Shown in pieces: positions 17,437 to 36,558 of a stretch of 64,000 nucleotides of DNA. Position 1 is the stretch's first letter. Every line of letters begins with the position of its first letter. The translations under genes were made by a program, and so were the position numbers. The stretch comes from an uncultured cyanobacterium (GTDB lineage: Bacteria > Cyanobacteriota > Cyanobacteriia > Cyanobacteriales > CAWUOF01): assembly GCA_963744145.1 (NCBI GenBank), contig CAVUSO010000001.1, positions 1,934,831 through 1,998,830 on the forward strand, read 5' to 3'. The notes under the pieces were generated by a model. The model was not told the origin of the DNA, did no database searches, and saw only the letters and a list, made by a program, of their open reading frames with translations.

Positions 17437-17450
17437 GTGAAGCTAAAATT

Positions 17451-18160: not shown

Positions 18161-18300
18161 AACTACCCCATCTTACATCACAGACAACACTGCTATACTT
18201 CATAAATAGGTCATACGCTAGATCTCATCCAGATTGAGAGTCTTTAAAATGTCACAAGGCACATCAAAGATAACGATGCTGGACTTTTAAGGTATTTTTT

Positions 18301-22044: not shown

Positions 22045-22385
22045 TCAGCGATGCTACATTTGCAAAAAGACTTCAGCAGGAAGCACCACGATGGGGACTG
22101 AGGCTGGAAGTCATCAGCGATCGTTCAACAGTGCAACATCGATTAACACAAACCACCCCAGAAGTAATTCTGCTGGCTCTAGATGGTGATGGGGCGGACA
22201 ATCCCTTGGCGCTATTGCAAACAATAAAGGCAGATTATCCAGCCATGCCGATTGTCATCCTGTCAGATCCTGAATCAATGCGACGAGCATTTGCCGTTGG
22301 AGCCAATGATGTGCTTGGAAAACCTGTGGTTGAAGCCGAGTTGGTGACAAGGATGATCAGCCGAATCAAGCAATTAGGCCAATAA
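22032..22385 (+). CDS. stand-alone receiver-like (CheY-like) domain, partly degenerate acid pocket
   Basis: LAIVSDA...ILLALDGDG...IVILSD...GANDVLGKP matches the receiver topology but the N-terminal DD pair is reduced to SD. GTG start. Confidence 0.45.
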   Translation: MLAIVSDATFAKRLQQEAPRWGLRLEVISDRSTVQHRLTQTTPEVILLALDGDGADNPLALLQTIKADYPAMPIVILSDPESMRRAFAVGANDVLGKPVVEAELVTRMISRIKQLGQ

Positions 22386-22392
22386 GCAGATT

Positions 22393-22773
22393 TTGCTCAT
22401 TGACCATGAGGCTTCTGTTCGAGAAGTTTTGCAGCTTTGCTTAAGCAGTGTTGATGGTTGGCAAATTATATCCGTTGCTTCTATCCAAGCCGGCTTAGAA
22501 AAGCTGTGCATTGAGCGTGTAGATGCTATTCTTCTAGATACAGAAAACTTAGAAACTGATGGAATTAGTTTTATTAAAAAACTTAAAAATGACCCATTTA
22601 CTCGATCGATTCCAGTTATCTTCATTACAGCTAAGGCAAAAAGCTTTTTGTCGCATCAACTGCAAGCATTGGGGATTGCGGGTGTGATGGCGAAACCATT
22701 TAATGCCAGGACTTTACCGATTCAATTGGCTGGAATGTTGAATTGGAGTCTGGGTTCTAAATTTGTTGATTGA
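22393..22773 (+). CDS. stand-alone response-regulator receiver domain
   Basis: ILLIDHEAS...AILLDTENLETDGISF...PVIFITAK...GVMAKPF. TTG start. Confidence 0.5.
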   Translation: MLIDHEASVREVLQLCLSSVDGWQIISVASIQAGLEKLCIERVDAILLDTENLETDGISFIKKLKNDPFTRSIPVIFITAKAKSFLSHQLQALGIAGVMAKPFNARTLPIQLAGMLNWSLGSKFVD

Positions 22774-22926: not shown

Positions 22927-23490
22927 TCAATGCTTTAAAATCACTTTGGCAGGAATCCCTATTGCAATTGAATTTGGCGGGATATCTTTGGTTACTACCG
23001 CACCAGCAGCAACAATAGAATTATCTCCAATTGTTACACCAGCTAAAATAGTTGCCCTAGATGCAATCCAAACATTATTACCAATAACAATTGGTTTATA
23101 TTCATGCTCTCTCGGATATTCTTTAACAGGCAAAGAGAAGTTGATCAGATTTTTTAAGCTTAAATATTCTGTGGGCAATTGCTCATTTTCCACCGCAGCT
23201 ATTTCATGCACTTTTAATCGACCAGTTTCCAGAATTACATAAGAAGAAATACTCACATATTGACCGATATCAATTCCACCTCCACCACCCATAACTACAC
23301 CATAATTAATAGATGTATAATCACCAATTTTAATTTTTTCAGGAGAGTACATTCTTGGCCACGCATATACTAATACTGATTTACCTAACTCCTTAACCAG
23401 AAGAGATAAAAATATATATCTGATATAGAGCAAGATGACATCGGTACTATTAAATATCCCTAGGGCTATTTTTTTGAATATGTTACTCAT
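22927..23490 (-). CDS. hexapeptide-repeat (left-handed beta-helix) acyl/acetyltransferase
   Basis: [48 protein letters not shown] hexapeptide repeats (WcaF/MAT-like). Confidence 0.75.
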
Positions 23491-23541
23491 AATCCATTTA
23501 ATTGCTAATGTTCAAAGTTCTCAGACTTGCTTAAATCTTTT

Positions 23542-24279
23542 TCAAAGTCTCTTGGCTAAAATAGTTACATATTTGAGATTTTCACCATTAAAAAAACTCC
23601 GATGATTATAAACATGAGTATCATGCAGTTTTAAAGTGCCTTCTGAGATCGCCTGACGGTAAAAGCGGATAAATTCAGGAGGATTACTTTGATTTTCGTA
23701 GCTAGTCTGGGCAATATTAAACATTACCCATGCCCCGGCTTGAATAAGATTCAATGCCAACTTAAAAGCATCAACAGGGATGTGATCGGAACTCAGAGCA
23801 GAACAACAGACTAAACAATTTAATTGTTGCTCTTTAATCCGGTTTTTGGTTGATTCTGATAACTGAGTTAAATCTTCAACGATATAATCTTGGTAAACCC
23901 CTGGACATTCTCTATTCGCGGCTACTGCTGCTTCAGGAACAATATCTATTCCGACAATAGCAGTAATACCCAATTTGGCTAATGCTTTACCAAATAAACC
24001 ACTACCCGCACCAAGTTCTAATATTTTGAGTTTGTCAATTGGTAAGCCTGTTTCTTTTACTTTTTCCACTAACAGAGATGACATGATTTCAGGCGATCGA
24101 TATTTGAGTATTTCAATAGCAATATATTCATACAACCCTGGAATACTATATACATCGCCATAGTCGTGTAATCTTAAGCGACGCTCTTGGCCATTTTGAG
24201 TAAGGAAAAAATACTCTTCATTAATAGATAAATTTCCTACATGATCGGGCAATCTGATTTGAAAATTAGTTTGAGTCAT
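23542..24279 (-). CDS. class I SAM-dependent methyltransferase
   Basis: Motif I ILELGAGSGLFGKALAKLG. Acidic residue after beta2 (GIDIVPEA). Confidence 0.7.
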   Translation of the reverse strand: MTQTNFQIRLPDHVGNLSINEEYFFLTQNGQERRLRLHDYGDVYSIPGLYEYIAIEILKYRSPEIMSSLLVEKVKETGLPIDKLKILELGAGSGLFGKALAKLGITAIVGIDIVPEAAVAANRECPGVYQDYIVEDLTQLSESTKNRIKEQQLNCLVCCSALSSDHIPVDAFKLALNLIQAGAWVMFNIAQTSYENQSNPPEFIRFYRQAISEGTLKLHDTHVYNHRSFFNGENLKYVTILAKRL

Positions 24280-24357
24280 AATATCAATTAGCTAAATTTT
24301 TGCTAGAGCTGAAGCAGGAAAAATCAATTGTCACCCAAGTAAAGAGTCGATTAATTA

Positions 24358-25050
24358 TTATCCTGTCGGAATTGCTAACGCTTTACCGTTATCGCTAGCA
24401 CCAATCTGTAAGATAAAAGGAATAGCTCTAATTACCCAATCTTGATCAGAAATGTAATTAGCTGCTTTTTCCTTACCATAGATAGTTTCTAAGGTATCAG
24501 TGTGAATTGTTCCGGGCCAAAGGGAAACTGTAGCCATACCAGATGGTAATTCTTGAGCAAAGGCTTTAGTTAATCCTTCAATAGCCCATTTACTAGCGCA
24601 GTAAGGAGTAGCATTAGCAGTGGTATAACGTCCCCAACCAGCACTAAAGTTAATAATTATTCCCCTATTTTGCTCCACCATTGCAGGGACAAAATGGCGA
24701 ATTACGTTAGCTACGCCTTTGATATTAATATCAATAACGCGATCGAATACTTCACTTTTAATTTTCCAGAGGGGCAAAAGTTCGTGAACGATACCTGCAT
24801 TATTTATGATTAAGTCAGGAGGTTCATATTGGGAGAGTATGGTTTTACTCCAAGCTTCTACTTGAGCTTCATTGGCAACATCTACAGAGGTAAAGTGATG
24901 ATGGGGCTGGGGGAATTGCTGTTGCAGATTTGCGATCGCTTCATGGTTAGTAGCACAACCTATTATAGTATGTCCTAACTGGATCAACTGTTCAGTCATT
25001 ACTCTACCTAAACCCCGACTTACGCCAGTAATTAGAATGATTTTGGTCAT
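24358..25050 (-). CDS. short-chain dehydrogenase/reductase (SDR) family oxidoreductase
   Basis: TGxxxGxG (ILITGVSRGLGRVM), NNAG, catalytic YxxxK (YCASKWAIEGL). Confidence 0.8.
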   Translation of the reverse strand: MTKIILITGVSRGLGRVMTEQLIQLGHTIIGCATNHEAIANLQQQFPQPHHHFTSVDVANEAQVEAWSKTILSQYEPPDLIINNAGIVHELLPLWKIKSEVFDRVIDINIKGVANVIRHFVPAMVEQNRGIIINFSAGWGRYTTANATPYCASKWAIEGLTKAFAQELPSGMATVSLWPGTIHTDTLETIYGKEKAANYISDQDWVIRAIPFILQIGASDNGKALAIPTG

Positions 25051-25059
25051 AATTATAGA

Positions 25060-26022
25060 TTAACCCACAGATAACAAGCTTCTGTTCGCAACACAGTAGT
25101 TGCTATACCAATAACTCATTGGCTTTGACCAAAAATATTGGGCATAACCTTCGCTCACAGCTTCACTACTTTCTCGGTACAGAAGAGAAGGAGAGTTATC
25201 AACCACATAAAATGTATGTCCTTGCCGATCTTGGTAGATCGGATTTTCTATTTTGGTGGCATGAGTACCTTGAATTGCTCTGCCGGTATCGGCTGCTGCA
25301 TCGATAATCCAGCCCGTAGATTTCATGGAATTAAGCATTTGCAAAGTAACAATTGGTGCATCAGATTCAGCTATTTCTACCGTATTAATAAAAATATCAT
25401 AATTTTGAAACTCTTGCTTGAGTAAATCCACATTACTTCTTCTACGCAACAATGGTTCGATTCCTTTACTAGCCAAATATTTTAATACACCATAAGCTAC
25501 ATTACCAGAACCAAATACTGCTACTTGGTCTTTTTCTATAATCCCGCCTCGCAACATAATTGCCTGCATAACTGAGGCATAACCAGCCAAAATACTATTT
25601 TTGTAGGTTATGTCTCTAGGAATATTCAGCTTTTCGGATTTTCCTTGATAAACGCGAATAGAAATTCGATTTGTCACATCAAAAAGTTGGAGCTTTTTCG
25701 GTTTAGCACAATGTTCTGTAAAGTGCTTTCCTGATGCACCAAACGGATGAATCCAACCAGCTAATCCTTGGTTTTCTCTAAAGTATTGATAGTCTTGGGG
25801 TTGAGGTACTTTAATACAGTAAATTACATCTGCCCAAGCAAAGAGACTTTCTCTGGAATAACCGCCAGCTTCTCCATACGCCCAATCGGGAATACCTAAA
25901 TTTTCTCCATAACCTTGTTCAAATCTACGTTCGTCTTCTGTGCTACAATAGGGTAAATCTTTCGGTAATAAACCGACTCTTTTTTCATTAGGGAAACTTG
26001 GCTTGATATAGGCAATCTTCAT
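25060..26022 (-). CDS. AlaDH/PNT-family NAD(P)-dependent enzyme (alanine dehydrogenase / saccharopine dehydrogenase / N5-(1-carboxyethyl)ornithine synthase-like)
   Basis: N-terminal KIAYIKPSFPNEKRVGLLP resembles the AlaDH/PNT N-terminal domain. Rossmann motif VAVFGSGNVAYG. Confidence 0.5.
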   Translation of the reverse strand: MKIAYIKPSFPNEKRVGLLPKDLPYCSTEDERRFEQGYGENLGIPDWAYGEAGGYSRESLFAWADVIYCIKVPQPQDYQYFRENQGLAGWIHPFGASGKHFTEHCAKPKKLQLFDVTNRISIRVYQGKSEKLNIPRDITYKNSILAGYASVMQAIMLRGGIIEKDQVAVFGSGNVAYGVLKYLASKGIEPLLRRRSNVDLLKQEFQNYDIFINTVEIAESDAPIVTLQMLNSMKSTGWIIDAAADTGRAIQGTHATKIENPIYQDRQGHTFYVVDNSPSLLYRESSEAVSEGYAQYFWSKPMSYWYSNYCVANRSLLSVG

Positions 26023-26039
26023 TTGATTTTCCTCAACTA

Positions 26040-27149
26040 TTAAAATTCTTGGTGTTGAAAATTTCTTCTGCCGACAAAGAAGTCCCAGTCTACATAACCT
26101 GAATTGAGCTTTCTGTCTCCTGTTGAGGGGTCAAAAGCTGTTCTTCCATGAAGGATTCTAAAGTTTTGGAAGAGTAGACAGTTATGTGGCTTCAGACGAA
26201 ACTGATATTGATAATCTGGTTTTTTGAGATAGCGGAAGAAAGTATTAAAAGCTTGGTAGAAATCTTCTAATTGCTCGAAGGGTAAATGAGGTCTACAGTT
26301 TCTTTTGCTAAATCGCACTGTACTAACATTACCATCTCGATCGCATTCCAGGATGGGAGAAGTGTTACAAAAACGATATTGATGATGGCGATCGACTAAC
26401 CAAAATTGTACGGGAGTTTCTCCTAATAGTTGAAAGTAATTTGGATAATCTTGGCGAAAGTCTTGAGCCACTCGAAATCCATCTACCAGAGTAGATTCAC
26501 CCCCGATTGCTTGGTGTTCTAAACAATAGAGAAACTGGACGAGATGATGTCCTCCCCAGTAACTGAGATCGTTATGGAGGGGTAAACTACATCCATCACG
26601 AGGAGGTAAAGATTCTTTCGTTTTGGCTTGGGGTTGTAGAGCAAATATTGTCCCGTAATCAACGTTATGAATTGGCCCAATAGATGAAATAAAAGATTCT
26701 AATTCGTCAGGTGGGATGTTTTCTAAAACGACGAATCCGAGACTAAATAATTGATCAATCCAAGAATTATCATTAATCGCCTGAACATCATAGCTTTTGG
26801 GCGATGGTAATTCTAGTTGTGTCCGATCCCATAAAATATAGCTCTCAGACTTTACTTGTGGTTGAGGATCGTAAGCATTCTTTAGTAACCAATCAACAGA
26901 GAATATACTACGATAGGCAGGAGTTTCATCCCAGTCAATGATTAAGGTTTCCCCATTGAACTCCACTGATAAAGGCTGCGGTTGTTCTGGGCGATCGCTA
27001 ATATTAGGATCGGAGAGTTGTTGATAGGGTGCTGGATACCGACAACTCGGACAATTTTCCCGTAACCAGATGTAATGAAAGCGTTTATCACCAACAGTAA
27101 TAAACTTTTCTGAGGTCATAGTTGTGGTTTTTTCTTTTTGAAGTTTCAT
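26040..27149 (-). CDS. Fe(II)/2-oxoglutarate dioxygenase, gamma-butyrobetaine hydroxylase-like (TauD/BBOX family with DUF971-like N-terminal domain)
   Basis: N-terminal FHYIWLRENCPSC (BBOX/DUF971-like). HxD...H facial triad region HNDLSYWGGHH...ILHGR. Paralog of 27166..28287. Probable real start at about 27119 (MTSEKF). Confidence 0.65.
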   Translation of the reverse strand: MKLQKEKTTTMTSEKFITVGDKRFHYIWLRENCPSCRYPAPYQQLSDPNISDRPEQPQPLSVEFNGETLIIDWDETPAYRSIFSVDWLLKNAYDPQPQVKSESYILWDRTQLELPSPKSYDVQAINDNSWIDQLFSLGFVVLENIPPDELESFISSIGPIHNVDYGTIFALQPQAKTKESLPPRDGCSLPLHNDLSYWGGHHLVQFLYCLEHQAIGGESTLVDGFRVAQDFRQDYPNYFQLLGETPVQFWLVDRHHQYRFCNTSPILECDRDGNVSTVRFSKRNCRPHLPFEQLEDFYQAFNTFFRYLKKPDYQYQFRLKPHNCLLFQNFRILHGRTAFDPSTGDRKLNSGYVDWDFFVGRRNFQHQEF

Positions 27150-27165
27150 ATTACTCTAGGATTTT

Positions 27166-28287
27166 TTACCGACTAAGAATAGATAAGCGACTGAGTAATT
27201 CTGTCCGTTCGATAAACGTACTTTGCATAAAGCGTTCTCCGGTATATTCGGTACGCCCATGTAGCACCCGATGGTTATCAAAAATCAGCAGATCTCCTGA
27301 ATTGAACTTGATCTTAACTCTATATTCATTGCAGTTACACAGTTCCATAAAGGTGCGGTATGCCTCGTAATAAGGCTTTATTATCTCTGAAGGGAAGTTA
27401 AAGGGCTGAATAGCACGCGAAGAAAAGCGAATTAACTTTACTTCGCCCAAACAATTGAGTTCGATAATCGCGCCTTCTCCCATTAAATCCGCATCAGTGT
27501 GTTGGAAGCGAAATTGTACAGGTAAAGTTGAGAGCAGTTTAAATTTCTCTGGGGCTTGTTGGCGTAATACTTCTGCTATTTTAAAACCATCAATCAGACT
27601 ATTCTCTCCTCCAGTAGCACCAGTGATTAAGTAGTGAAAGAGTAAATAAGCAGGTGGAGAAGCAAAATAAGATAAATCGGTATGGGGTAAAATCCTTAAA
27701 TTAGTAAACGCATCGGTTTCAGGATTCGCTACATTTTTAACATTATTACACTTACCCCAATAGGTTTCACGCACACAACCTAGCTGAGATGCTATTTCTA
27801 AGATAGTACCTGGCTCGGTAGGAACATTTTGTAGTACAGCAATTCCCTCATCACGTACAGCTAATAACCAGTCTTTCAGTTGGGCTTCATTCTGCCAAAT
27901 ATCGCGATAGTCAGCTTTGGTTATTGAAGTTGCTTTTTCTGAACCCCATAATTTAGGTTGCCAAGATTTGGACTGTGTTTTATTAGAGTAGGAATGTTCG
28001 CGTAACCAGAGCGAATCGAATTTGCTAACATGACTTTCATTAGCCCAGACAATTTCGATTTGTTGTTCGTGATTGATGCTGACTTGATCGGGATAGGGTT
28101 CAAGCGGAAGAGTCAAAGGATCGATGGTACGCTGACAGTTGACACGGGGGGTTGCTGGGCAATTGTCTCGTAGCCAAACATAATGAAATTGACTGTGAAA
28201 TCCATCTTCCCATTCAACCTGAAGCAAGTCTTTTTCAGTTTTCAGTTTGAGGACAGATCTATCTGAATTAGTTGCTACTGTTAACAT
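27166..28287 (-). CDS. Fe(II)/2-oxoglutarate dioxygenase, gamma-butyrobetaine hydroxylase-like (paralog)
   Basis: FHYVWLRDNCP, HTDLSYFASPP, RVLHGRTEY. Same architecture as 26040..27149. Confidence 0.65.
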   Translation of the reverse strand: MLTVATNSDRSVLKLKTEKDLLQVEWEDGFHSQFHYVWLRDNCPATPRVNCQRTIDPLTLPLEPYPDQVSINHEQQIEIVWANESHVSKFDSLWLREHSYSNKTQSKSWQPKLWGSEKATSITKADYRDIWQNEAQLKDWLLAVRDEGIAVLQNVPTEPGTILEIASQLGCVRETYWGKCNNVKNVANPETDAFTNLRILPHTDLSYFASPPAYLLFHYLITGATGGENSLIDGFKIAEVLRQQAPEKFKLLSTLPVQFRFQHTDADLMGEGAIIELNCLGEVKLIRFSSRAIQPFNFPSEIIKPYYEAYRTFMELCNCNEYRVKIKFNSGDLLIFDNHRVLHGRTEYTGERFMQSTFIERTELLSRLSILSR

Positions 28288-29281
28288 CGGTTTCTCCTGA
28301 TTGTGTCATTAATGTTTTAACGATTTCTTGCCAAGCTAGATCGCAAATTCGACTACGACTATCTTGGGTATTGGTGGCAATGTGAGGAAAAATTAAGCAA
28401 TTATCAAGCTTATGCAGAGGATCATTAACAGGTAGGGGTTCTGGTTCGGTGACATCTAACAGTGCCATCGCGATTAAACCCTTTTCTAAGGCTATATATA
28501 GGTGATCTTGATTACAAATTGCTCCTCTGGCAATATTGATAAAAATTCCCGATCGCTTCATCTTCTCAAATGCTTTTGTGTCAAACATATTTTGGCTAGA
28601 GTTGTTGAGAGAACAGCAGACGATCACAGCATCTGATTCAGTAAGCAGTTGCTCAAAACTGACATATTCAAGTGAATACTGATGTTCTAATTCTGGCTTC
28701 TGATGTGGAGAAAAATAGAGGATACGAGAATTAAATCCCACCAGACGTTTAACGATCGCACTGCCAATCTTACCCATACCAACGATCCCAATTGTCAGTT
28801 GTGATAAAGCAAACCCATCTAAATTCCACAAATAATATGGCGTTACATTATTATCACTTAGTTGGAGATTTTTGTCAATACGTCTAATCCCAATTAATAA
28901 AAGAGCGATCGCGTAATCGGCAATAGCATCTGTGGTTACTCCGGGTACATTAGCAACCTGAACACCATGTTTCTGACAAGCATTGAGATCGACATTTTCG
29001 ATCCCATTACTCATCACTGAAACTATTTTAAGAGTCTCTCCCGCAGCTTGAATTAAGGTGGCATCAATTCGATCTTCATAGGTGCATAAAATAGCATCAT
29101 AGTTGTTTTGAGTAACTTTGCTCAGTAGTTCTTGATAAGTCATCTGACGTTTTTCGGTAAAACAATCAATAGCAAAGTAATCGGGAAATTTTTCTCTTGA
29201 TTGCTGAGGAATCAGAGCAGTTATTAGAATTCGATAATGCACAATATTGGTTTTGGTTTTTACCTGTTCTAAGGGTTTCAT
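28268..29281 (-). CDS. D-isomer-specific 2-hydroxyacid dehydrogenase family (glyoxylate/hydroxypyruvate reductase-like)
   Basis: NAD-binding GIVGMGKIGSAIVKRL. Catalytic region ...FINIARG...HIATNT. Confidence 0.75.
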   Translation of the reverse strand: MKPLEQVKTKTNIVHYRILITALIPQQSREKFPDYFAIDCFTEKRQMTYQELLSKVTQNNYDAILCTYEDRIDATLIQAAGETLKIVSVMSNGIENVDLNACQKHGVQVANVPGVTTDAIADYAIALLLIGIRRIDKNLQLSDNNVTPYYLWNLDGFALSQLTIGIVGMGKIGSAIVKRLVGFNSRILYFSPHQKPELEHQYSLEYVSFEQLLTESDAVIVCCSLNNSSQNMFDTKAFEKMKRSGIFINIARGAICNQDHLYIALEKGLIAMALLDVTEPEPLPVNDPLHKLDNCLIFPHIATNTQDSRSRICDLAWQEIVKTLMTQSGETDVNSSN

Positions 29282-29300
29282 TTGCTGATGTTAGCAATGT

Positions 29301-29879
29301 TTATTTAACTGGGATAAATTGATATTGAGGTTTTGGTTGAGCAAAAATTTGTTTGACTATAGGGACAAAAAAATCTAGGTCGAAAGAGTCATAATTGGGA
29401 TCGAAGCTGTTTTGATCATATTTTTCACAGAAATCTATTGTGGCTTGATAATAGGGAGAATCTCGATATTTTTCTCGGACATCGCGATCGCCTCCCAGAT
29501 AGTGGGCGCAATAATACTTTTGAAACAAGGAGTGATGTTTAACTATCCAATAAGTCTGTTCTGACACATAGGGCTTAAGAATAGCAGCAGCCATTTCTCC
29601 ATGATTGTAAGGAGCTAAGATATCGCCAATATCGTGAAGTAAAGCAGCAGCAATTGTCTCGACGTTTTCACCTTCCCGAGCAGCTCTGGTAGCTGCTTGC
29701 AGAGAATGTTCATAACGAGTTACTTGGTAGCCATCAAAGGAAGTTTTCAATGGTTCTAAAGCTTTTAAAATCCGTTCTGGAACATCTTGTGTTGCTTCAG
29801 CGGCTAAGGCATATAGAAGCACAAAGTCTTCTTTTGTTCCATGTTCCATAGCAGTAAAATTAACTTGGTTCATGCTCAT
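29301..29879 (-). CDS. HD-domain protein (PhnZ/TmpB/MIOX-like mixed-valent diiron oxygenase candidate, or phosphohydrolase)
   Basis: HD motif AALLHDIGD with upstream His (YEHSLQAATRA) and downstream HH (VKHHSLF). About 190 aa, the size of PhnZ-like proteins. Confidence 0.5.
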   Translation of the reverse strand: MSMNQVNFTAMEHGTKEDFVLLYALAAEATQDVPERILKALEPLKTSFDGYQVTRYEHSLQAATRAAREGENVETIAAALLHDIGDILAPYNHGEMAAAILKPYVSEQTYWIVKHHSLFQKYYCAHYLGGDRDVREKYRDSPYYQATIDFCEKYDQNSFDPNYDSFDLDFFVPIVKQIFAQPKPQYQFIPVK

Positions 29880-31273
29880 ACCTCCTGAAAAAAAGGTGTT
29901 AAATTATTCGCTGGAGTTTCGACAAAAGGTAACTTTTGATTCTCGAAGAAATCTTCAACCTTTCCTAACTCACGAATAACTTCAATTTTTCCTTTGCTAT
30001 AAGCTATTTCCGCCGGATAATTATGGAGAGCAAAATTAGTTACGGAGTGATTGAAACCATAAGCTCCACAATTATAAATTACTAGGCGATCGCCTATTTC
30101 TACATCTTGAGGTACTTCCACATCTTCTACCATAATGTCTAAAGGTGTAGGTAGTTTTCCGGCGAGAGTTACTGTTTCGGTATTGAATTTCTCTTTACCC
30201 AAAACATCCATAAATTTGCTGGCTTTTTTCATAGACATAGATATTCTTAACAGTTGATGAATGCCACCATCCAAAATTAAAAACTTTTTGCCTTGGGATT
30301 CTTTGATGTCAAGAATTTCTGCAACATAAGAACCAGATTCGCAGACTAAATAACGACCTAATTCAAAAAAATAGTCGTATCGATAGGGATTATTATCACT
30401 AATATTCTGCATTTGCTTGCCAAATTCTTCAAGATTAAATTCGGCATCAATAGCATTGTAAGGAACACCCATTCCCCCACCGAAATCGACTATAGATATC
30501 AGATAGCCTTGATCTCGCAGACGATTAGCAATTCTAATAGTATTCTGACAAGAAGCAACCAATAGTTGGTAATCAAGAATATTACTTTCGGTAAAAATAT
30601 GAATACCTTTGAGGTTAATATTTGGCAGAGATACAATCTCCCCGATCGCTTCTGAAACTATCTGTTCATCAATCCCAAATTTACTAGCACTTTGGCAAAT
30701 TAATTGGATCGGAGCAGTTGATTCTGTATTCAGAGTACAACTACTACTTCCTTGACTTACTTCACAACTATTACTGGTGCGATATAAGGGATTAATTCTT
30801 ACCAGGATATCTTGAATGATTCCATATTTTGCTGCCAAAGAATTTAAACGACGTGCTTCATTGATAGATTCAACAACAATTAAACGAATGCCTTGTTTCA
30901 AGGCAAATGATAATTCTCGGTTGGTTTTCCCTGGACTTGTAAATACAATCTGTTGGGGAGAAAAACCAGCTTTAATAGCTGCAACTAATTCGCCAATAGA
31001 ACTAATATCTGCTGAAGCTCCCAGCTTAGCTAAATGATGACAAATAGACAAATTACTATTTGCCTTGAGAGTGTAATGAACTCGAAAATGCTCTGGCAAA
31101 AAGGTTGTCAAACTATTAAATTGACGTTCAATTTTGTCAAAGTCATAAAAATATAGTGGAGTTTCATATTGCCCAACTAATCTTTCAATTTTTTGGTGCT
31201 GCCGAGATGTAGATTGTATAAATTCAGTCATCATATTGATTGTTGTTGTAACATTGACCAGTGAACTGAACAT
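29876..31273 (-). CDS. PLP-dependent decarboxylase, Orn/DAP/Arg decarboxylase family 2 (fold-type III, LysA-like)
   Basis: PLP-lysine motif YTLKANSNLSICHHLAKLG. C-terminal beta-barrel motifs (CESGS, GAYGF). Confidence 0.75.
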   Translation of the reverse strand: MFSSLVNVTTTINMMTEFIQSTSRQHQKIERLVGQYETPLYFYDFDKIERQFNSLTTFLPEHFRVHYTLKANSNLSICHHLAKLGASADISSIGELVAAIKAGFSPQQIVFTSPGKTNRELSFALKQGIRLIVVESINEARRLNSLAAKYGIIQDILVRINPLYRTSNSCEVSQGSSSCTLNTESTAPIQLICQSASKFGIDEQIVSEAIGEIVSLPNINLKGIHIFTESNILDYQLLVASCQNTIRIANRLRDQGYLISIVDFGGGMGVPYNAIDAEFNLEEFGKQMQNISDNNPYRYDYFFELGRYLVCESGSYVAEILDIKESQGKKFLILDGGIHQLLRISMSMKKASKFMDVLGKEKFNTETVTLAGKLPTPLDIMVEDVEVPQDVEIGDRLVIYNCGAYGFNHSVTNFALHNYPAEIAYSKGKIEVIRELGKVEDFFENQKLPFVETPANNLTPFFQEV

Positions 31274-31421: not shown

Positions 31422-33215
31422 TCATTCCGCTTCCTGCTGAACGGGTAGCCTGAAATAAAAGGTGCTTCCTGCTCCCAACCCACTCTCTACCCAAATCTGT
31501 CCTTGGTGCTGTTGCACAATACTCTTGCAAATGGCAAGTCCTAACCCCGTTCCTCGCTTCTTTTGGGAATCCTGCACATCCACTTGCTGAAATCGACCAA
31601 AGATGGTTTCGAGTTTATCCGCAGGAATCCCAAGTCCCTGATCCTGAATGGAGAAGAGAATATAGGGTAGTGGGGTATGGATGTTTTCCCTGACTTTCTC
31701 GCTCTCCCAATCCTTCGCTTCGACAACCTCTGCTTTTACCCACACTGTACTATTAGCCGGAGAAAACTTGATGGCATTGCTCAACAGGTTGGTTAATGTT
31801 TGCACGATCGCATCTGGTGCAGCCCATACCGAGACGGTCAGCGGTGTTCAATCCAGATGGATTTTGGCAGCATCGGCGATCGGCTGTATGGTTTCAACTC
31901 CTTGCTGGATCAGATCCGTCACCTCACAAGCTGCCATCTCCAGCGCGGTTGTGCGAGACTCTAACCGCTCCAGATCGAGGATGTGATTAACTAATCGCAC
32001 CAGTCGCTCGCTATTATTGAGGGCGATCGAAATCAGATGGTTAAACTTTTCAGAATTGTTGTGATAGAGCCCTGATTCCAGGATGCCGAGAGAACCGTGA
32101 ATAGCAGTCAGTGGGGTTCGGAGTTCATGACTAACAATGGAGATAAATTCATCTTTCATCTGCTCGATCACATGGCGATCGCTAATGTCTTGAATTTGAG
32201 CAATAAAGTAGATCGGTTCTCCCTGGTGATCTCGGACAAGTGATAAATTCAACAGAGACCAAACCACATAACCTTGTTGATGGAAATACCGCTTCTGTAC
32301 TTGGTAGGTTTGAATTTCACCTGCCAGGACTCTTTGGATTTGCTCTAAATTAATGACCAGATCATCAGGATGGGTAATTGCTTGAAAGGTTTTGGTCAAC
32401 AATTCGGCTTGACTGTAGCCCAGAATTTCTGAAAGCGATCGATTGACGCGAATCAATTGACCTTCAAGTGCTATTAATGCAATACCAATGGGAGCATCTT
32501 CAAAAGCACTGCGGAACCGTTCTTCAGTACGTTGGAGTTCCTGGGTGCGTGCCGCGATCTGGTCCTCTAGCTCTCTGGAATAATCGGTTAAAATTCGCTC
32601 GGCTTCTCGTCGTTTCGTGATGTCTTGAAAGGCATTAATAGCATAGAGAACCTGCTCTACCGGATAAAGTTGATTGGTTCCTGCTTGGTAGATTTGATCG
32701 GCTTGAGACTGTCGTAAAGGCGACAAGTTGAAAATATTTCCTCCTCCTAAAATGGTTTCACCCACTTGATTGAGGAGAATTTGATTTCCAGTGGCATCAA
32801 AGACGCTGATTCCGACTGGAACATTACTCAGGAGCTTCTCAAATCGTCGTTCGCTCTTTTGCAGCGATCAGAACGACGTTTCAATCTGATGCGCCATCCG
32901 TTGAAAAGCGTTCGTTAGACCTGCGACTTCACTGACGACCGAGTTTTCGACTGGATCATCTAACTGTCCGGTGGCGATCGCCACTGCTGCTTGCTGCAAG
33001 CGATAAATCGGTCTGGCAATCCAACCAGCACTCAACATTCCTGTCCCCGCAGCGATGAGTAGAGTCAGCCCACACAAGAGCCATGTTCGCTGGGTATTAG
33101 CCTGAATTTTTGCCATGAAATCGGATTCGGGAATGATCACCACCACCAGCCAATCCAACCCGTATTGATCTTGGTAAGGAGTTACCTGGACAAACTGCCG
33201 CTGGTGGTTACTCAT
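31422..33215 (-). pseudogene. sensor histidine kinase (TM-HAMP-PAS-HisKA-HATPase) interrupted by two in-frame TGA codons
   Basis: Three consecutive same-frame ORFs (33215-32868 HAMP, 32765-31848 PAS+HisKA with SHELRTPLTAI, 31805-31422 HATPase with NLLSNAIKF...GLGL). The first two each end in TGA. No frameshift between them. Confidence 0.65.
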
Positions 33216-33552: not shown

Positions 33553-33645
33553 ACAGGGTGAGTAAAGCCAACCCCGATCGATCTATTCTGCTCCGACAAT
33601 TGGTGCAAATCCTTGACGTTGAACATTCTCTGTTACTGTTCGCGG
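33553..33645 (+). repeat. putA 3' end / downstream segment duplicated at 21427-21512
   Basis: About 85 bp near-identical direct repeat. This copy is part of the intact putA gene. Confidence 0.7.
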
Positions 33646-36558
33646 TTCTAAGAATTGCAACAAATAATCAGGACCGCCAGCTTTAGAACCAACTCCCGAT
33701 AACTTAAATCCACCAAAAGGTTGTCGAGATACGATCGCACCAGTAATCCCACGATTGATATATAGATTACCGACTTCAAATTCAGTTTGGGCTTGTTGAA
33801 TATGAGAAGGTGTGCGAGAATATAAACCACCAGTTAAAGCAAAGTTAGTGCTATTCGCGATCGCGATCGCTTCAGCAAAGTCTTTAGCTTTAATTACTGC
33901 TAAAACCGGTCCAAAAATTTCTTCCTGAGCAATCTTAGCGGTGGGTGACACATTGGTAAAAACTACCGGTCCAATAAAATAACCTGAATCTGGTGCAGGT
34001 ATTTCTACAGCTAACTCTGCTTCTTGACGACCGATTTCAATATATTCACGAATTTTTTGATGAGCATTAGCATCAATTACCGGACCGACTTGAGTGCTAG
34101 GTAACTCAGCAGCACCAATATTTAGCGATCGGGTAGCTTCTACTAAACGTTGCACAAAAGTATCATAGATTGATTCTAACACAATCACCCGTGAACAAGC
34201 GGAACATTTCTGACCACTATAACCAAATGCGGACTGAACTACTCCTGCAACTGCTTGATCTAAATCAGCACTTTCATCAACAATTATTCCATTCTTACCA
34301 CCCATTTCTGCAATTACTCGTTTCAGATGTTTCTGTCCTGGTTGTAAAATTGCTGCATCTGCATAGATCCGACAACCAACTTCTTGAGAACCAGTAAAAG
34401 TAATCATCTGTACATCAGGATGCTTGACCATATAAGCACCTACACTTGATCCTTTTCCCGGTACAAATTGAAATACTCCCGGAGGAATTCCTGCTGCTAC
34501 TAAAATATCAGCGATTTGAGCAGCAATCACTGAGGAAACTTCTGCTGGTTTGAGTAAGGTACAATTTCCTGCTACTAAAGAAGCTACTGTCATTCCCGTC
34601 GGAATTGCTAAGGGGAAATTCCAAGGAGAGATAATTAAAGAAATCCCACGGGGTTGATAGGTATAGCGATTAGTTTCTCCAGCAACATCATAATTATATC
34701 CTTGTTCTAACCGTTCCATTTCTGCTGCATAATAACGACAGAAATCGATCGCTTCGGAAACTTCCCCATCACATTCACGTAGAGGTTTACCAACTTCTAA
34801 CATCATCCAAGCACATAATTGTGCCCGTCTGGTTTCCATTATATCTCCAGCTTTTCGCAATATTTCCGCTCGTTTTTGGACGGGAGTTTTGCGCCAATTA
34901 TGAAATGCTTTTTTAGCAGCAGTAATTGCAGTTTCCGCTTGTTCGATGGAAATTAATCCAAGTTTACCAATCACTTCACTAGGATGAGAAGGATTAATTG
35001 AATCCACTGTTTGGGCGGTATTTTGGTATTCACCATCAATTAAAGGTAAATAGGTTTTCCCCAATTGCAGACGGATTTCTTGCAAAGCTTGGTGAGCTTT
35101 TTTCCGATTATTTACATCAGCATAATCTGTATCCGCAGCATTAGGAAATACTTGATGTTTTTCGTAAACTGCGTTAGGATCTTTAACAACTGGTGGTGCT
35201 AGTAATTCATCGATCGGACGTTCTTCCAAACTTTGACGCAAAAATGAGCTATTAGCCGTATTTTCTAATAAACGACGAATTAAATAACCCATTCCTGGCA
35301 GTAAATTACCATAAGGAGCATACACCCGCACCCGATGACCACAATCTACTAATCCTTTAGCAATTTTATCACCCATCCCGTATAAAACTTGCATTTCAAA
35401 TCGACGACGGGGGATATTTAGAGTTTCGGCGATCGCCATTGCTTTAGCTTGCGATCGGACATTATGACTAGCGATCGCTCCATAAAGATACTGATGATTT
35501 TCTAATAAAATCTGAGTGAGTTTCTCATAATTAGCATCAGTAGCAACTTTATCATTAAAAACTGGTTGATGCCAATCTTTTTGAGCAGATTTAATGGTTT
35601 CTTGATCCCAATATGCACCTTTAACTAAACGTACAGTTACCGGATTTCCGCGTTCTTTAGCCCAAACAATTAAATCTTGTAAATCTTTTTCTGTATCGCG
35701 CAAATATCCTTGGAGAGTCATTCCAATATCAGTGCGATCGCGAAATTCTGGTTCGAGCAGGATTTGTTTAAGAGTAGCTAGAGTTAAGTCTTTATAGCAA
35801 TATTGTTCCATATCGAAGTGAACTGCTGCTCCGACTGCTTGAGCATGACGTAATAGAATCCGGATGCGATCGCTAACTTTTGCTTGACTTCCCTGATCAT
35901 TGAGGGGATCGAATTGGGAATAAAAGGCAGTTAACTTGACAGATACTTGAACTTGTGGTATAGATTCTCCATCTGCTTGATCAATTACTGGTACAGATGA
36001 CCATTTTTTGGCAGCTTCGGCAAGTTGGGTCATCAAATCTAAGTAGCGATCGAGATAGGATTGTGCTTCCACCTCAGTAATGACAGCTTCCCCTAACAAA
36101 TCAATAGAGAAAGCCATTTTTTCTTTGCGGAGACGTTCAACAGTTTTAATCACAGCGGAAATATTTTCCCCAGCAATATACTTATGTGCTAAGGTTTCAA
36201 CTGCGGTAGCCACAGTCGTAGCAGCGACTTGACCAGGAATAGAATCAGCATGAGCAAAATTGAGTATACCTTTCAAAGCCGAAGGAAGTTCAACTTCTGC
36301 CGTCGTTAGATATTCTTGGAGATGACGGGCAATTTCAGCTTTACTACGCAAAGCAGGTAAACAATCAATAAAACGAAATAGTTGGACCCTTAGTCCTGGA
36401 TTACTCATGGCCCAAGCGAGTAATTTATCATCCCAGCGCATTTGTTCTTGTAATTGTCCGAACAGGGAGCGTTTTTTCTCCTGAGTAGCGGATAAAAGTT
36501 CTTGAGCGATTACTTGAGTTTTAGCTTCGTAGGTGCTATTTGATACTTGTACGACCAC
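33583..36558 (-). CDS. putA: bifunctional proline dehydrogenase / delta-1-pyrroline-5-carboxylate dehydrogenase (PutA, no DNA-binding domain)
   Basis: N-terminal proline dehydrogenase domain. C-terminal aldehyde dehydrogenase motifs EMGGKNGIIVDESADLD and FGYSGQKCSACSR. 991 aa. Confidence 0.85.
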   Translation of the reverse strand: MVVQVSNSTYEAKTQVIAQELLSATQEKKRSLFGQLQEQMRWDDKLLAWAMSNPGLRVQLFRFIDCLPALRSKAEIARHLQEYLTTAEVELPSALKGILNFAHADSIPGQVAATTVATAVETLAHKYIAGENISAVIKTVERLRKEKMAFSIDLLGEAVITEVEAQSYLDRYLDLMTQLAEAAKKWSSVPVIDQADGESIPQVQVSVKLTAFYSQFDPLNDQGSQAKVSDRIRILLRHAQAVGAAVHFDMEQYCYKDLTLATLKQILLEPEFRDRTDIGMTLQGYLRDTEKDLQDLIVWAKERGNPVTVRLVKGAYWDQETIKSAQKDWHQPVFNDKVATDANYEKLTQILLENHQYLYGAIASHNVRSQAKAMAIAETLNIPRRRFEMQVLYGMGDKIAKGLVDCGHRVRVYAPYGNLLPGMGYLIRRLLENTANSSFLRQSLEERPIDELLAPPVVKDPNAVYEKHQVFPNAADTDYADVNNRKKAHQALQEIRLQLGKTYLPLIDGEYQNTAQTVDSINPSHPSEVIGKLGLISIEQAETAITAAKKAFHNWRKTPVQKRAEILRKAGDIMETRRAQLCAWMMLEVGKPLRECDGEVSEAIDFCRYYAAEMERLEQGYNYDVAGETNRYTYQPRGISLIISPWNFPLAIPTGMTVASLVAGNCTLLKPAEVSSVIAAQIADILVAAGIPPGVFQFVPGKGSSVGAYMVKHPDVQMITFTGSQEVGCRIYADAAILQPGQKHLKRVIAEMGGKNGIIVDESADLDQAVAGVVQSAFGYSGQKCSACSRVIVLESIYDTFVQRLVEATRSLNIGAAELPSTQVGPVIDANAHQKIREYIEIGRQEAELAVEIPAPDSGYFIGPVVFTNVSPTAKIAQEEIFGPVLAVIKAKDFAEAIAIANSTNFALTGGLYSRTPSHIQQAQTEFEVGNLYINRGITGAIVSRQPFGGFKLSGVGSKAGGPDYLLQFLEPRTVTENVQRQGFAPIVGAE

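What the first reader, a model, noticed from the sequence alone, without database searches (positions are those of the whole stretch)
26040..29879. Two BBOX-like 2OG dioxygenases plus an HD-domain protein: TmpA/TmpB- or PhnY/PhnZ-like pairing
Gamma-butyrobetaine-hydroxylase-like 2OG oxygenases paired with HD-domain mixed-valent diiron oxygenases have been shown to oxidatively cleave C-P bonds. TmpA/TmpB act on 2-(trimethylammonio)ethylphosphonate and PhnY/PhnZ on 2-aminoethylphosphonate. Both enzyme classes were long misannotated as BBOX and phosphohydrolase. Here two tandem BBOX-like paralogs (FHY[IV]WLR[ED]NCP N-domains) sit two genes away from a roughly 190 aa HD protein carrying the H...HD...HH pattern. 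Such a set-up could mediate organophosphonate utilisation, or an analogous hydroxylate-then-cleave chemistry on an ammonium compound, as part of the operon above.
Basis: partly seen in the sequence, partly recalled or inferred. Interest (0 to 1): 0.7.

Follow-up and report, generated by a model that had tools for sequence, protein, structure and literature searches.

The report
Hydroxylase plus PhnZ-like iron protein operon
A cyanobacterial nine-gene operon pairs a butyrobetaine-hydroxylase-like enzyme with a small iron-binding HD protein that has the fold and metal ligands of the known C-P-cleaving oxygenases but belongs to a large uncharacterised sister family. It most likely hydroxylates and then oxidatively cleaves a methylated amine compound, not a phosphonate.

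Summary
On the minus strand, 31273..22927 is one tight nine-gene operon. It holds a 192-aa HD protein and two BBOX-family Fe/2OG oxygenases, here called BBX-A and BBX-B.

It is not PhnZ or TmpB. It scores 41.5 bits against a cut-off of 214.6, and 34.9 against 300. The YxxE loop and His62 are replaced.

It belongs to a family of thousands of proteins, about 55-60% identical across cyanobacteria, SAR11, SUP05, Actinobacteria and Chloroflexi. I found no paper on this family.

BBX-B is the conserved partner of the HD protein; BBX-A is not. Ten cyanobacterial loci carry the core of decarboxylase, HD, BBX-B, carboxyethylornithine-synthase-like enzyme, SDR and methyltransferase. Sister clusters lack both HD and BBX-B and carry a class II aldolase and another TauD instead.

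In a SAR11 subset, a BBOX-like gene abuts the HD gene. In marine gammaproteobacteria the HD gene lies inside sarcosine oxidase or MttB/dimethylglycine-dehydrogenase operons. I found no phosphonate genes in the flanks I examined.

Verdict: the hydroxylate-then-cleave logic is supported. Orthology to TmpAB or PhnYZ and a phosphonate substrate are not.

The parts
29876..31273 (-). PLP-dependent Orn/DAP/Arg-fold decarboxylase (DC), 465 aa. First gene of the operon. Its stop codon overlaps the HD start (ATGA).
   Evidence: Pfam Orn_Arg_deC_N and Orn_DAP_Arg_deC. NCBIfam lysA 269.9 bits, below the 297.9 cut-off. Best PDB match is BtrK, the L-glutamyl-ACP decarboxylase, at 1.4e-53, followed by LysA structures. 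Conserved at 55-91% identity in every related cluster.
29301..29879 (-). HD-domain protein, 192 aa. The real start is probably Met3 at 29873, 7 nt after an AGGAGG. Predicted ligands are H58, H82, D83, H93, H116 and D155. It is a PhnZ/TmpB/MIOX-like putative diiron oxygenase from an uncharacterised clade.
28268..29281 (-). D-isomer-specific 2-hydroxyacid dehydrogenase, 337 aa. Lineage-specific accessory gene.
   Evidence: Pfam 2-Hacid_dh and 2-Hacid_dh_C. Glyoxylate reductase model 232.6 bits against a 455 cut-off. Found only in the window and in L001/L002 among related clusters.
27166..28287 (-). BBX-A, a BBOX-family Fe/2OG oxygenase, 373 aa. Accessory tailoring hydroxylase.
   Evidence: GBBH-like_N plus TauD. 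BBOX model 307.5 against 414.75; TmpA model 289.1 against 400. PDB: TmpA 1e-52, BBOX 1e-45, DfmD 1e-38. The H-x-D...H triad and the 2OG Arg are conserved. Present only in the window, L001 and L101. Groups with BBOX-type enzymes in the NJ tree.
26040..27149 (-). BBX-B, a BBOX-family Fe/2OG oxygenase, 369 aa. It is the conserved core partner of the HD protein.
   Evidence: TauD 8.5e-40. TmpA model 215 against 400; BBOX model 202.9 against 414.75. 67-92% identical orthologues sit in all type I clusters. Fused to the CEOS-like gene in Roseofilum casamattae. Active site positions read E/R/K/R where hBBOX has N191/Y194/N293/A294.
25060..26022 (-). AlaDH/PNT-fold enzyme, 320 aa, named N5-(carboxyethyl)ornithine synthase (CEOS) by the source databases. 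It is among the most conserved genes of the cluster.
   Evidence: Pfam AlaDh_PNT_N and AlaDh_PNT_C. Source names. 71-93% identical in related clusters. The tight family is almost only filamentous cyanobacteria, then identity drops to 39%.
24358..25050 (-). Short-chain dehydrogenase/reductase, 230 aa. Core gene.
   Evidence: Pfam adh_short 6.7e-43. 58-92% identical in related clusters, including type II.
23542..24279 (-). Class I SAM-dependent methyltransferase, 245 aa. Core gene of type I clusters.
   Evidence: Pfam Methyltransf_23/25/11. No informative PDB relative; the best is METTL27 at E 0.008. 41-92% identical in type I clusters.
22927..23490 (-). Hexapeptide-repeat acyl/acetyltransferase, 187 aa. 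Last gene of the operon and a lineage-specific accessory gene.
   Evidence: Pfam Hexapep. Found only in the window and L001.

Best explanation
The region is one co-transcribed nine-gene operon of a filamentous cyanobacterium that makes or remodels a small polar nitrogen compound. It is not a phosphonate-scavenging system.

The conserved core has six genes: a LysA/BtrK-like PLP decarboxylase, the HD protein, BBX-B, a carboxyethylornithine-synthase-like reductive N-alkylating enzyme, an SDR and a SAM methyltransferase.

**Proposed mechanism (inferred)**
1. The CEOS-like enzyme joins an amino group of a diamino or amino acid to a 2-oxo acid.
2. The decarboxylase removes one alpha-carboxylate.
3. 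The methyltransferase N-methylates the product, possibly up to a quaternary ammonium.
4. BBX-B hydroxylates a methylene carbon.
5. The HD protein binds the new hydroxyl and a neighbouring acidic group on a mixed-valent Fe(II)/Fe(III) pair. It uses O2 for a four-electron oxidative cleavage of the adjacent bond, most likely C-C, leaving a carboxylate.

This is the logic of PhnY/PhnZ, TmpA/TmpB and SmaO/SmaX.

BBX-A, the 2-hydroxyacid dehydrogenase and the acetyltransferase are lineage-specific tailoring steps.

**Shown:** gene content, operon structure, ligand conservation, fold class, co-variation of HD with BBX-B, and the wider contexts of the family.

**Inferred:** oxygenase activity, the order of the steps, and the nature of the substrate.
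For: **Operon structure.** Gaps are 4-nt and 20-nt overlaps or 9-78 nt. Promoter and terminator matches are no more frequent than in shuffled sequence.

**HD protein**
- H58, H82, D83, H93, H116 and D155 are invariant or nearly so in 28 family members. They align with the ligands of a TmpB orthologue and of a Nostoc Phn-HD.
- The AF2 model has pLDDT 91.8.
- Foldseek top hits are TmpB at 1e-6, PhnZ at 1e-5 and then MIOX.
- The best NCBIfam hits are the three C-P oxygenase families.

**Coupling to a BBOX-like hydroxylase**
- HD and BBX-B are both present in the window, L001, L007, L008, L009, L013, L096, L099, L107 and L108.
- Both are absent from the type II clusters L092 and L105. These keep the decarboxylase, CEOS-like enzyme and SDR but carry a class II aldolase and an unrelated TauD. 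That pairing looks like a non-oxidative hydroxylate-then-cleave alternative.
- In 10 of 64 SAR11 loci a BBOX-like gene abuts or overlaps the HD start. This is the arrangement seen for TmpA-TmpB in L010.

**Link to methylated amines**
- In 10-11 marine gammaproteobacterial loci the HD gene lies in soxBDAG or MttB-DMGDH operons. In SAR11 the BBOX-like/HD pair lies next to an AMP-binding gene, and in L016 also next to an OpuAC gene.
- A methyltransferase sits in the cluster, as in the DfmD-type operons described in PMC9296572.

**Precedent for C-C cleavage.** SmaO/SmaX, reported in PMC12186529.
Against: - No enzyme activity, metal content or product is known for any member of this HD clade.
- The six-ligand motif also occurs in dinuclear HD phosphohydrolases (PMC8177086).
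- The residues that position the substrate in PhnZ and TmpB are replaced: Y24 to F48, E27 to Y51, H62 to D86 and R158 to E152. The chemistry could therefore differ.
- In the window the HD gene is translationally coupled to the decarboxylase, not to a hydroxylase.
- Most SAR11 copies (54 of 80 loci) sit between purF and gshA with no hydroxylase nearby. The family may therefore act on a common metabolite without any hydroxylase.
- The Arg that binds phosphonate in TmpA (R288) is conserved in BBX-A, BBX-B and the SAR11 proteins. A strongly anionic group, even a phosphonate, is not excluded.
- The substrate and step order are guesses.
Confidence: 0.45

Rival explanations
1. True organophosphonate catabolism. 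One BBOX-like enzyme hydroxylates C1 of 2-AEP, TMAEP or a related phosphonate. The HD protein then cleaves the C-P bond to release phosphate, as TmpA/TmpB or PhnY/PhnZ do.
For: - TmpA is the best solved relative of both oxygenases.
- TmpB and PhnZ are the best relatives of the HD protein.
- The TmpA R288 equivalent is conserved.
- The SAR11 BBOX-likes next to the HD gene are sister to TmpA in the rough tree.
Against: - All family scores are far below the curated cut-offs.
- TmpA N187 and N287 are T and S in BBX-A, and E and K in BBX-B.
- The YxxE loop, His62 and Arg158 are replaced in the HD protein.
- No phosphonate transporter, PepM or Pho-type genes are in the annotated flanks of the window or in related loci.
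- A bona fide Phn-HD from a cyanobacterium (Nostoc, L011) sits in a phn C-P lyase operon and is only 26% identical to this protein.
- The operon partners are amine and acid biosynthetic enzymes.
Confidence: 0.1
2. The HD protein is a dinuclear metal phosphohydrolase, not an oxygenase. It removes a phosphate from a phosphorylated intermediate, for example a phosphocholine-like N-methylated phospho-alcohol. The BBOX-like enzymes are unrelated tailoring hydroxylases.
For: - H..HD..H..H..D is shared with diiron hydrolases such as YqeK (PMC8177086).
- Distant CEOS clusters carry a choline-kinase/APH-like gene.
- The invariant R55, R135 and H126 could bind phosphate.
- A place in betaine-catabolic operons would also suit a phosphocholine phosphatase.
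Against: - HD co-varies with BBX-B and is replaced by an aldolase plus TauD in sister clusters.
- There is no kinase in type I clusters.
- The methyltransferase has no detectable similarity to phosphoethanolamine methyltransferases.
Confidence: 0.15
3. The HD family catalyses one conserved reaction on a common metabolite, for example making glycine betaine or a related acid from a hydroxylated quaternary amine such as carnitine or choline. It does this independently of any neighbouring hydroxylase. In the cyanobacterial operon it was simply recruited for that step, and BBX-A and BBX-B act elsewhere in the pathway.
For: - The family is 53-65% identical across phyla, and its tree follows taxonomy.
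- 54 of 80 loci have no hydroxylase nearby.
- The gammaproteobacterial copies sit directly in glycine betaine, dimethylglycine and sarcosine demethylation operons without a 2OG oxygenase.
Against: - Presence and absence of HD and BBX-B co-vary strictly in the cyanobacterial clusters.
- BBOX-like and HD genes abut in SAR11.
Confidence: 0.2
4. A bacterial carnitine-type pathway. BBX-A and BBX-B play the TMLH and BBOX roles on trimethyl-lysine-like and butyrobetaine-like intermediates, and the HD protein is peripheral.
For: - There are two BBOX-family enzymes plus a methyltransferase and dehydrogenases.
- BBX-A groups with BBOX-type enzymes.
- BBX-A scores best on the BBOX model.
Against: - Both enzymes are below the BBOX and TMLH cut-offs.
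- The carboxylate-binding Asn191 and Asn292 are not conserved, and the aromatic cage is incomplete.
- BBX-A is missing from most clusters.
- There is no aldolase or aldehyde dehydrogenase in type I clusters.
Confidence: 0.07

Closest known systems
TmpA/TmpB of Leisingera caerulea (2-trimethylaminoethylphosphonate hydroxylase plus HD-domain mixed-valent diiron oxygenase; PDB 6NPB, 6NPA)
   Same: - A BBOX-family Fe/2OG hydroxylase is paired with a roughly 190-aa HD protein.
- The six metal ligands are identical.
- TmpB and TmpA are the best or near-best solved relatives by sequence and by fold.
- A methylated-amine theme is shared.
   Different: - Identity to TmpB is 22-26% and to TmpA 25-33%.
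- Scores are far below the NCBIfam cut-offs.
- YxxE is replaced by F..Y, the His after HDxG by Asp, and the Arg three residues before the last Asp is lost.
- There are three deletions of 11, 7 and 12 aa and a 24-aa N-terminal extension.
- The phosphonate-binding Asn residues of TmpA are replaced.
- The pair is embedded in a 6-9 gene biosynthetic-type operon rather than a two-gene catabolic unit.
PhnY/PhnZ (2-aminoethylphosphonate dioxygenase plus PhnZ; PDB 4MLM, 4MLN, 4N71)
   Different: - There is no PhnY-type oxygenase.
- The Phn-HD model scores 41.5 bits against 214.6.
- Glu27 and His62, which hold the amine and the hydroxyl of the substrate, are replaced.
- There is no phosphonate context.
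SmaO/SmaX (Asp beta-hydroxylase plus HD-domain C-C-cleaving oxygenase in RiPP biosynthesis, PMC12186529)
   Same: A 2OG hydroxylase is followed by an HD-domain oxygenase in a biosynthetic pathway, and a C-C bond rather than a C-P bond is cleaved next to a hydroxyl.
   Different: SmaX has a single Fe with only His, His and Asn ligands and acts on a peptide. The protein here keeps the full diiron set and sits in a small-molecule operon. The two were not compared directly.
myo-Inositol oxygenase (MIOX, PDB 2HUO)
   Different: It is 258 aa, about 14-17% identical, works alone without a partner hydroxylase, and acts on a cyclitol.
N5-(carboxyethyl)ornithine synthase plus LysA-like decarboxylase. 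This resembles the carboxy(nor)spermidine dehydrogenase/decarboxylase logic; that comparison is from my own knowledge.
   Same: The cluster's two best-conserved non-oxygenase genes have these folds. Reductive N-alkylation followed by decarboxylation is an established way to build N-alkyl amines.
   Different: Firmicute CEOS-type proteins are only 35-39% identical. The decarboxylase is below the lysA cut-off. No substrate is known.

Membership tests
PhnZ / Phn-HD (TIGR03276) | Score at or above the curated cut-off of the family model | tested here: not met
   41.5 bits against 214.6, and only residues 46-125 align.
PhnZ / Phn-HD (TIGR03276) | Six ligands H..HD..H..H..D (PhnZ H34, H58, D59, H80, H104, D161) | tested here: met
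   H58, H82, D83, H93, H116 and D155 align with the ligands of the TmpB orthologue and of Nostoc Phn-HD. They are invariant or nearly so in the family.
PhnZ / TmpB | YxxE gating loop (Tyr24/Glu27 in PhnZ, Tyr30/Glu33 in TmpB) and the His after HDxG (His62) that holds the substrate hydroxyl | tested here: not met
   The aligned residues are F48, Y51 and D86. The features are defined in PMC8177086 and PMC7916636.
TmpB (NF049941) | Score at or above the curated cut-off | tested here: not met
   34.9 bits against 300.
[quoted passage not shown] | Fold closer to the oxygenases than to the HD hydrolases | tested here: met
[quoted passage not shown] | Fe(II)/Fe(III) cofactor and O2-dependent four-electron bond cleavage | not testable with these tools
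   This needs metal analysis, EPR or Moessbauer spectroscopy, and enzyme assays.
TmpA (NF049936) | Score at or above the cut-off, and the phosphonate binders N187, N287 and R288 | tested here: not met
   BBX-A scores 289.1 and BBX-B 215 against 400. The three residues are T/S/R in BBX-A and E/K/R in BBX-B (residues defined in PMC9296572).
gamma-Butyrobetaine dioxygenase (TIGR02409) | Score at or above the cut-off; the carboxylate binders Asn191 and Asn292/293; a full aromatic cage | tested here: not met
   BBX-A scores 307.5 and BBX-B 202.9 against 414.75. Asn191 is T in A and E in B. The Asn pair is S-S in A and S-K in B. The cage positions Y177/W181/Y194/Y366 read W/N/F/F in A and Y/F/R/Y in B (the cage residues are from my own knowledge).
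Trimethyllysine dioxygenase (TIGR02410) | Score at or above the cut-off | tested here: not met
   216.6 for BBX-A and 167.3 for BBX-B against 268.3.
BBOX/TmpA/DfmD superfamily of Fe/2OG oxygenases (TauD fold with GBBH-like N domain) | H-x-D...H iron triad, the 2OG-binding Arg, the TauD domain and the GBBH-like N domain | tested here: met
   The triad and the Arg are conserved in both. TauD scores 4e-34 and 8.5e-40. GBBH-like_N scores 47.6 bits in BBX-A. In BBX-B it scores only 19.1, below the 22.8 cut-off, although the FHYIWLRENCP motif is kept.
PhnY (2-aminoethylphosphonate dioxygenase) | Similarity to a PhnY-type 2OG oxygenase | tested here: not met
   No PhnY-named family is among the NCBIfam hits of either oxygenase at E up to 0.01. 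I did not confirm that the library holds such a model.
Diaminopimelate decarboxylase LysA (TIGR01048) | Score at or above the cut-off | tested here: not met
   269.9 against 297.9. BtrK is a better PDB match than any LysA.

The most novel reading that the evidence does not exclude
[quoted passage not shown] The clade acts on non-phosphonate hydroxylated, N-methylated or quaternary-ammonium compounds, leaving a betaine-type carboxylate.

In marine filamentous cyanobacteria this clade completes the biosynthesis of an undescribed N-methylated metabolite. In SAR11, SUP05 and other abundant marine bacteria the same enzyme feeds glycine betaine, dimethylglycine and sarcosine demethylation. That would make it an unrecognised step of the oceanic methylated-amine cycle.
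Probability: 0.35. Interest if true: 0.8.

Novelty: new variant of a known kind. Interest (0 to 1): 0.62.

Why it matters
Only four or five HD-domain oxygenases have been characterised: MIOX, PhnZ, PhnZ1, TmpB and SmaX. The review literature names the identification of further ones as an open goal.

This protein marks a clade of thousands of sequences. It has the complete diiron site and the oxygenase-type fold, but its substrate-positioning residues differ.

The clade is present in most SAR11 loci retrieved. It also lies inside the betaine and sarcosine demethylation operons of SUP05-type and other marine gammaproteobacteria. If it is an oxygenase with a non-phosphonate substrate, the known chemistry of this cofactor would widen, and a reaction would be added to marine methylated-amine turnover.

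The cyanobacterial operon is a rare and compact gene set found in genera rich in natural products: Okeania, Moorena, Symploca, Lyngbya, Roseofilum and Leptolyngbya. It has variable tailoring genes and is a tractable route to both the substrate and the product.

Tried and rejected
- **Exact look-up of the window's HD protein:** not on record.
- **Papers on PhnZ structure and on TmpA/TmpB** (PMC6503667, PMC3986159, PMC3839769): not held. Residue roles were taken from two reviews and the DfmD paper instead.
- **Literature searches** for this HD clade, COG4341, HD oxygenases with betaine, carnitine or choline, or this cyanobacterial cluster: nothing relevant.
- **Rfam scan** of the window and ten related loci for a riboswitch that might name the ligand: none found, only tRNAs and one PYLIS-like hit.
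- **Promoter and terminator scan** inside the operon: no more hits than in shuffled sequence.
- **Test of a phospho-base (PEAMT-like) pathway:** the methyltransferase has no detectable similarity to phosphoethanolamine methyltransferases in the PDB.
- **Metagenome scan with the CEOS-like protein:** only ten short loci.
- **AlphaFold-database fold library:** not available.
- **Recent tandem duplication of the two BBOX-like genes:** rejected. They are 27-30% identical and fall in different clades.
- **Specific products:** I considered carnitine, glycine betaine, an opine-type metallophore and aminoethylglycine or BMAA-type amino acids. None could be tested.

Full report
**1. What is there**

The minus strand from 31273 to 22927 carries nine ORFs. 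They either overlap, by 4 nt for decarboxylase/HD and 20 nt for 2-hydroxyacid dehydrogenase/BBX-A, or are separated by 9-78 nt. Promoter-like and terminator-like matches inside the stretch are no more frequent than in shuffled sequence. I therefore read it as one operon.

Pfam and NCBIfam give the genes in this order:

| Coordinates | Length | Assignment |
|---|---|---|
| 29876-31273 | 465 aa | PLP Orn/DAP/Arg-fold decarboxylase |
| 29301-29879 | 192 aa | HD-domain protein |
| 28268-29281 | 337 aa | D-2-hydroxyacid dehydrogenase |
| 27166-28287 | 373 aa | BBX-A (GBBH-like_N plus TauD) |
| 26040-27149 | 369 aa | BBX-B (TauD, weak GBBH-like_N) |
| 25060-26022 | 320 aa | AlaDH/PNT-fold enzyme |
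| 24358-25050 | 230 aa | SDR |
| 23542-24279 | 245 aa | SAM methyltransferase |
| 22927-23490 | 187 aa | Hexapeptide acyltransferase |

**2. The HD protein**

*Family scores.* Its best NCBIfam hits are the three C-P-cleaving HD oxygenase families. All are far below the cut-offs and cover only the N-terminal half: Phn-HD 41.5 bits against 214.6, TmpB 34.9 against 300, and PhnZ1 32.4 against 300. The only PDB sequence matches are TmpB and PhnZ, at E 1e-4 to 1e-3 with the single sequence and 2.5e-9 and 3e-9 with a family profile.

*Ligands.* I fetched a TmpA/TmpB orthologue pair from an Aliiroseovarius plasmid (L010) and a Nostoc Phn-HD that lies inside a phn C-P lyase operon (L011). In the joint alignment H58, H82, D83, H93, H116 and D155 line up with the H..HD..H..H..D ligands. 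The same residues are invariant or nearly so in 28 diverse family members.

*Differences from PhnZ and TmpB.* The features that position the substrate are replaced. These features are described in PMC8177086 and PMC7916636, and the replacements are seen.
- The YxxE loop (Tyr24/Glu27) becomes F48..Y51.
- His62, which holds the substrate hydroxyl, becomes D86.
- Arg158 becomes E152.
- Glu162 becomes the invariant Q156.
- There are three deletions and a 24-aa N-terminal extension.
- The family has its own invariant residues: R55, Q61, W111, Y123, H126, R135, C151, Q156 and D160-P161.

It is a sister clade of PhnZ and TmpB, not a member of either.

**3. The HD family at large**

The homology search returned 5352 proteins. 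The best 120 are still 56-91% identical to the query and come from cyanobacteria, Actinobacteria, Chloroflexota and marine metagenomes.

In one genome per species, more than 594 loci matched. The best 80 are mostly Pelagibacteraceae, SUP05/Thioglobus and other gammaproteobacteria. Their contexts fall into the following classes.

| Context | Loci |
|---|---|
| SAR11: cvpA-purF-HD-gshA-gshB | 54 |
| SAR11: AMP-binding (662 aa)-BBOX-like-HD, with an OpuAC gene further upstream in L016; the hydroxylase gene abuts or overlaps the HD start | 10 |
| SUP05-type: soxB-soxD-soxA-soxG-HD-dsbB | 6-7 |
| Other gammaproteobacteria: MttB-like, dimethylglycine-dehydrogenase-like, HD, PLP enzyme, creatinase-like | 4 |
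| Cyanobacterial cluster | 1 |
| Other | 5 |

Outside these, a Saccharopolyspora copy follows amidohydrolase and Rieske genes, and a Chloroflexota copy precedes P450 and UbiA genes.

An NJ tree of the HD proteins follows taxonomy. The family therefore looks old and functionally uniform. It recurs next to BBOX-like hydroxylases and inside methylated-amine catabolic operons. I did not see it next to phosphonate genes in the contexts I examined.

I found no paper on this clade.

**4. The two oxygenases**

Both keep the H-x-D...H triad and the 2OG arginine. Both have TmpA as their best solved relative, at 1e-52 and 6e-38, followed by human BBOX and DfmD. Both are below the cut-offs of the TmpA, BBOX and TMLH models.

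They are only 27-30% identical to each other.

In a rough NJ tree without bootstraps, BBX-A groups with BBOX-type enzymes. BBX-B forms its own clade dominated by cyanobacteria. The SAR11 hydroxylases next to the HD gene are sister to TmpA.

| Position | BBX-A | BBX-B |
|---|---|---|
| TmpA phosphonate binders N187/N287/R288 | T/S/R | E/K/R |
| hBBOX Asn191 and Asn292/293 | Not kept | Not kept |
| Aromatic cage (hBBOX Y177/W181/Y194/Y366) | W/N/F/F | Y/F/R/Y |

These mappings come, with the residue definitions from PMC9296572. The mixed acidic and basic pocket of BBX-B suggests a zwitterionic, amino-acid-like substrate. That is an inference.

**5. The conserved cluster**

BBX-B, not BBX-A, is the conserved partner of the HD protein.
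- Orthologues of the decarboxylase (60-91%), HD (59-91%), BBX-B (67-92%), AlaDH-like enzyme (74-93%), SDR (62-92%) and methyltransferase (41-92%) occur together.
- The loci come from Okeania, Roseofilum (two species), Lyngbya and several metagenomes: L001, L007, L008, L009, L013, L096, L099, L107 and L108.
- Accessory genes vary: ATP-grasp, DUF2785, PhyH and WbmS-like. In the window's lineage they are the 2-hydroxyacid dehydrogenase, BBX-A and the acetyltransferase.

The AlaDH-like protein is named N5-(carboxyethyl)ornithine synthase by the source databases. Its tight family, at 55% identity or more, is small and almost only cyanobacterial. Identity then drops to 39%.

In Roseofilum casamattae BBX-B and this enzyme are fused into a 643-aa protein.

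A second cluster type occurs in Scytonema (L092) and in L105.
- It keeps the decarboxylase, the CEOS-like enzyme and the SDR.
- It lacks both the HD protein and BBX-B.
- It carries a class II aldolase, an unrelated 431-437-aa TauD and another methyltransferase instead.

HD and BBX-B therefore come and go together. They are replaced by a hydroxylase and an aldolase, the non-oxidative way to cleave next to a new hydroxyl, as in carnitine biosynthesis (my own knowledge).

The decarboxylase is closest to BtrK and to LysA.

I annotated roughly 14.5-40 kb of the window. Those flanks hold a fragmented sensor kinase, putA, fragmented response regulators, a helicase, a DNA methylase and an IS110. No phosphonate genes are present there. 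No riboswitch was found.

**6. Interpretation**

The best reading is a biosynthetic or remodelling operon for an N-alkylated, N-methylated compound derived from an amino acid. In it, BBX-B hydroxylates the compound, and the HD protein then oxidatively cleaves the adjacent bond as a mixed-valent diiron oxygenase.

PMC12186529 shows that the logic extends to C-C bonds.

It rejects orthology to TmpAB or PhnYZ and a phosphonate substrate. My confidence is 0.45.

| Rival reading | Confidence |
|---|---|
| The HD protein has a family-wide stand-alone function unrelated to the neighbouring hydroxylases | 0.2 |
| The HD protein is a phosphohydrolase | 0.15 |
| True phosphonate catabolism | 0.1 |
| A carnitine-type pathway | 0.07 |

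None of these can be closed without biochemistry.

**7. Novelty**

The pairing is a new variant of a known kind. The cascade is familiar, but it appears here in an uncharacterised and very large HD clade and in a new gene-cluster context.

The wider distribution of the clade is the most interesting lead. It occurs in most SAR11 loci retrieved and in the sarcosine and dimethylglycine operons of marine gammaproteobacteria.

Noticed in passing
window 31422-33215 (-): The sensor histidine kinase just upstream of the operon is split into three ORFs: HAMP (115 aa), PAS plus HisKA (305 aa) and HATPase (127 aa). It also lacks the dCache part. The closest relative (L001) has one intact 960-aa gene at the same position. 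This is probably a pseudogene or a sequencing error.
   Followed up: partly
window 21541-22773 (+): Three short ORFs just downstream of the operon carry Trans_reg_C and two Response_reg domains. They look like fragmented or orphan response-regulator genes.
   Followed up: no
window 14500-21426 (+), 37113-37544, 39141-39962: A DUF1156/N6-adenine DNA methylase (978 aa) and an SNF2/ResIII helicase (1041 aa) may form a defence-type island. A PIN-domain gene and an IS110-family transposase lie on the other side of putA (33583-36558).
   Followed up: no
L027:10007-10564 and 53 other Pelagibacteraceae loci: In most SAR11 genomes retrieved, the HD homologue (about 58% identical) sits in a fixed cvpA-purF-HD-gshA(GCS2)-gshB arrangement. 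This would make it close to a core gene of a streamlined genome, with unknown function.
   Followed up: partly
L016:5864-11685, L037:1210-5941, L021:6948-11679 and 7 more SAR11 loci: A second SAR11 arrangement reads AMP-binding enzyme (648-662 aa), BBOX-like oxygenase, HD, with a KASIII-like gene opposite. In L016 an OpuAC-type binding-protein gene precedes it. The oxygenase stop touches or overlaps the HD start. In a rough tree these oxygenases are sister to TmpA.
   Followed up: partly
L040:4807-11113, L014, L033, L062, L063, L079; L034:5954-13648, L083, L087, L089: In SUP05/Thioglobus-type gammaproteobacteria the HD gene follows soxB-soxD-soxA-soxG. In other marine gammaproteobacteria it lies between a dimethylglycine-dehydrogenase-like gene, which is preceded by an MttB-like gene, and PLP-enzyme and creatinase-like genes. 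This links the family to glycine betaine and sarcosine demethylation.
   Followed up: partly
L108:8001-9932: Roseofilum casamattae encodes a 643-aa fusion of the BBX-B-type oxygenase with the carboxyethylornithine-synthase-like enzyme. This argues that the two act on the same or consecutive intermediates. It could also be an assembly frameshift.
   Followed up: partly
L092:3714-16815, L105:8604-16004: A sister cluster occurs in Scytonema hofmannii and in a marine cyanobacterial MAG. It keeps the decarboxylase, the CEOS-like enzyme and the SDR. It replaces HD and BBX-B with a class II aldolase, a 431-437-aa TauD and another methyltransferase. PrpD-like, PhyH, cupin and EamA-exporter genes also appear.
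   Followed up: partly
L093:9492-13764, L094, L106: More distant CEOS-like genes (55-58% identical) sit with a SET-domain methyltransferase and a radical SAM enzyme. In L093 and L094 a choline-kinase/APH-like kinase and an SDR fragment are also present. This may be a third variant of the same N-alkyl-amine theme.
   Followed up: no
L034:6992-7091 (+): Rfam PYLIS_3, the pyrrolysine insertion sequence of mttB, scores 44.9 bits against a gathering threshold of 38 inside the MttB-like gene of a marine gammaproteobacterial MAG. This is unexpected for a presumed non-pyrrolysine MttB homologue and may be sequence conservation only.
   Followed up: no
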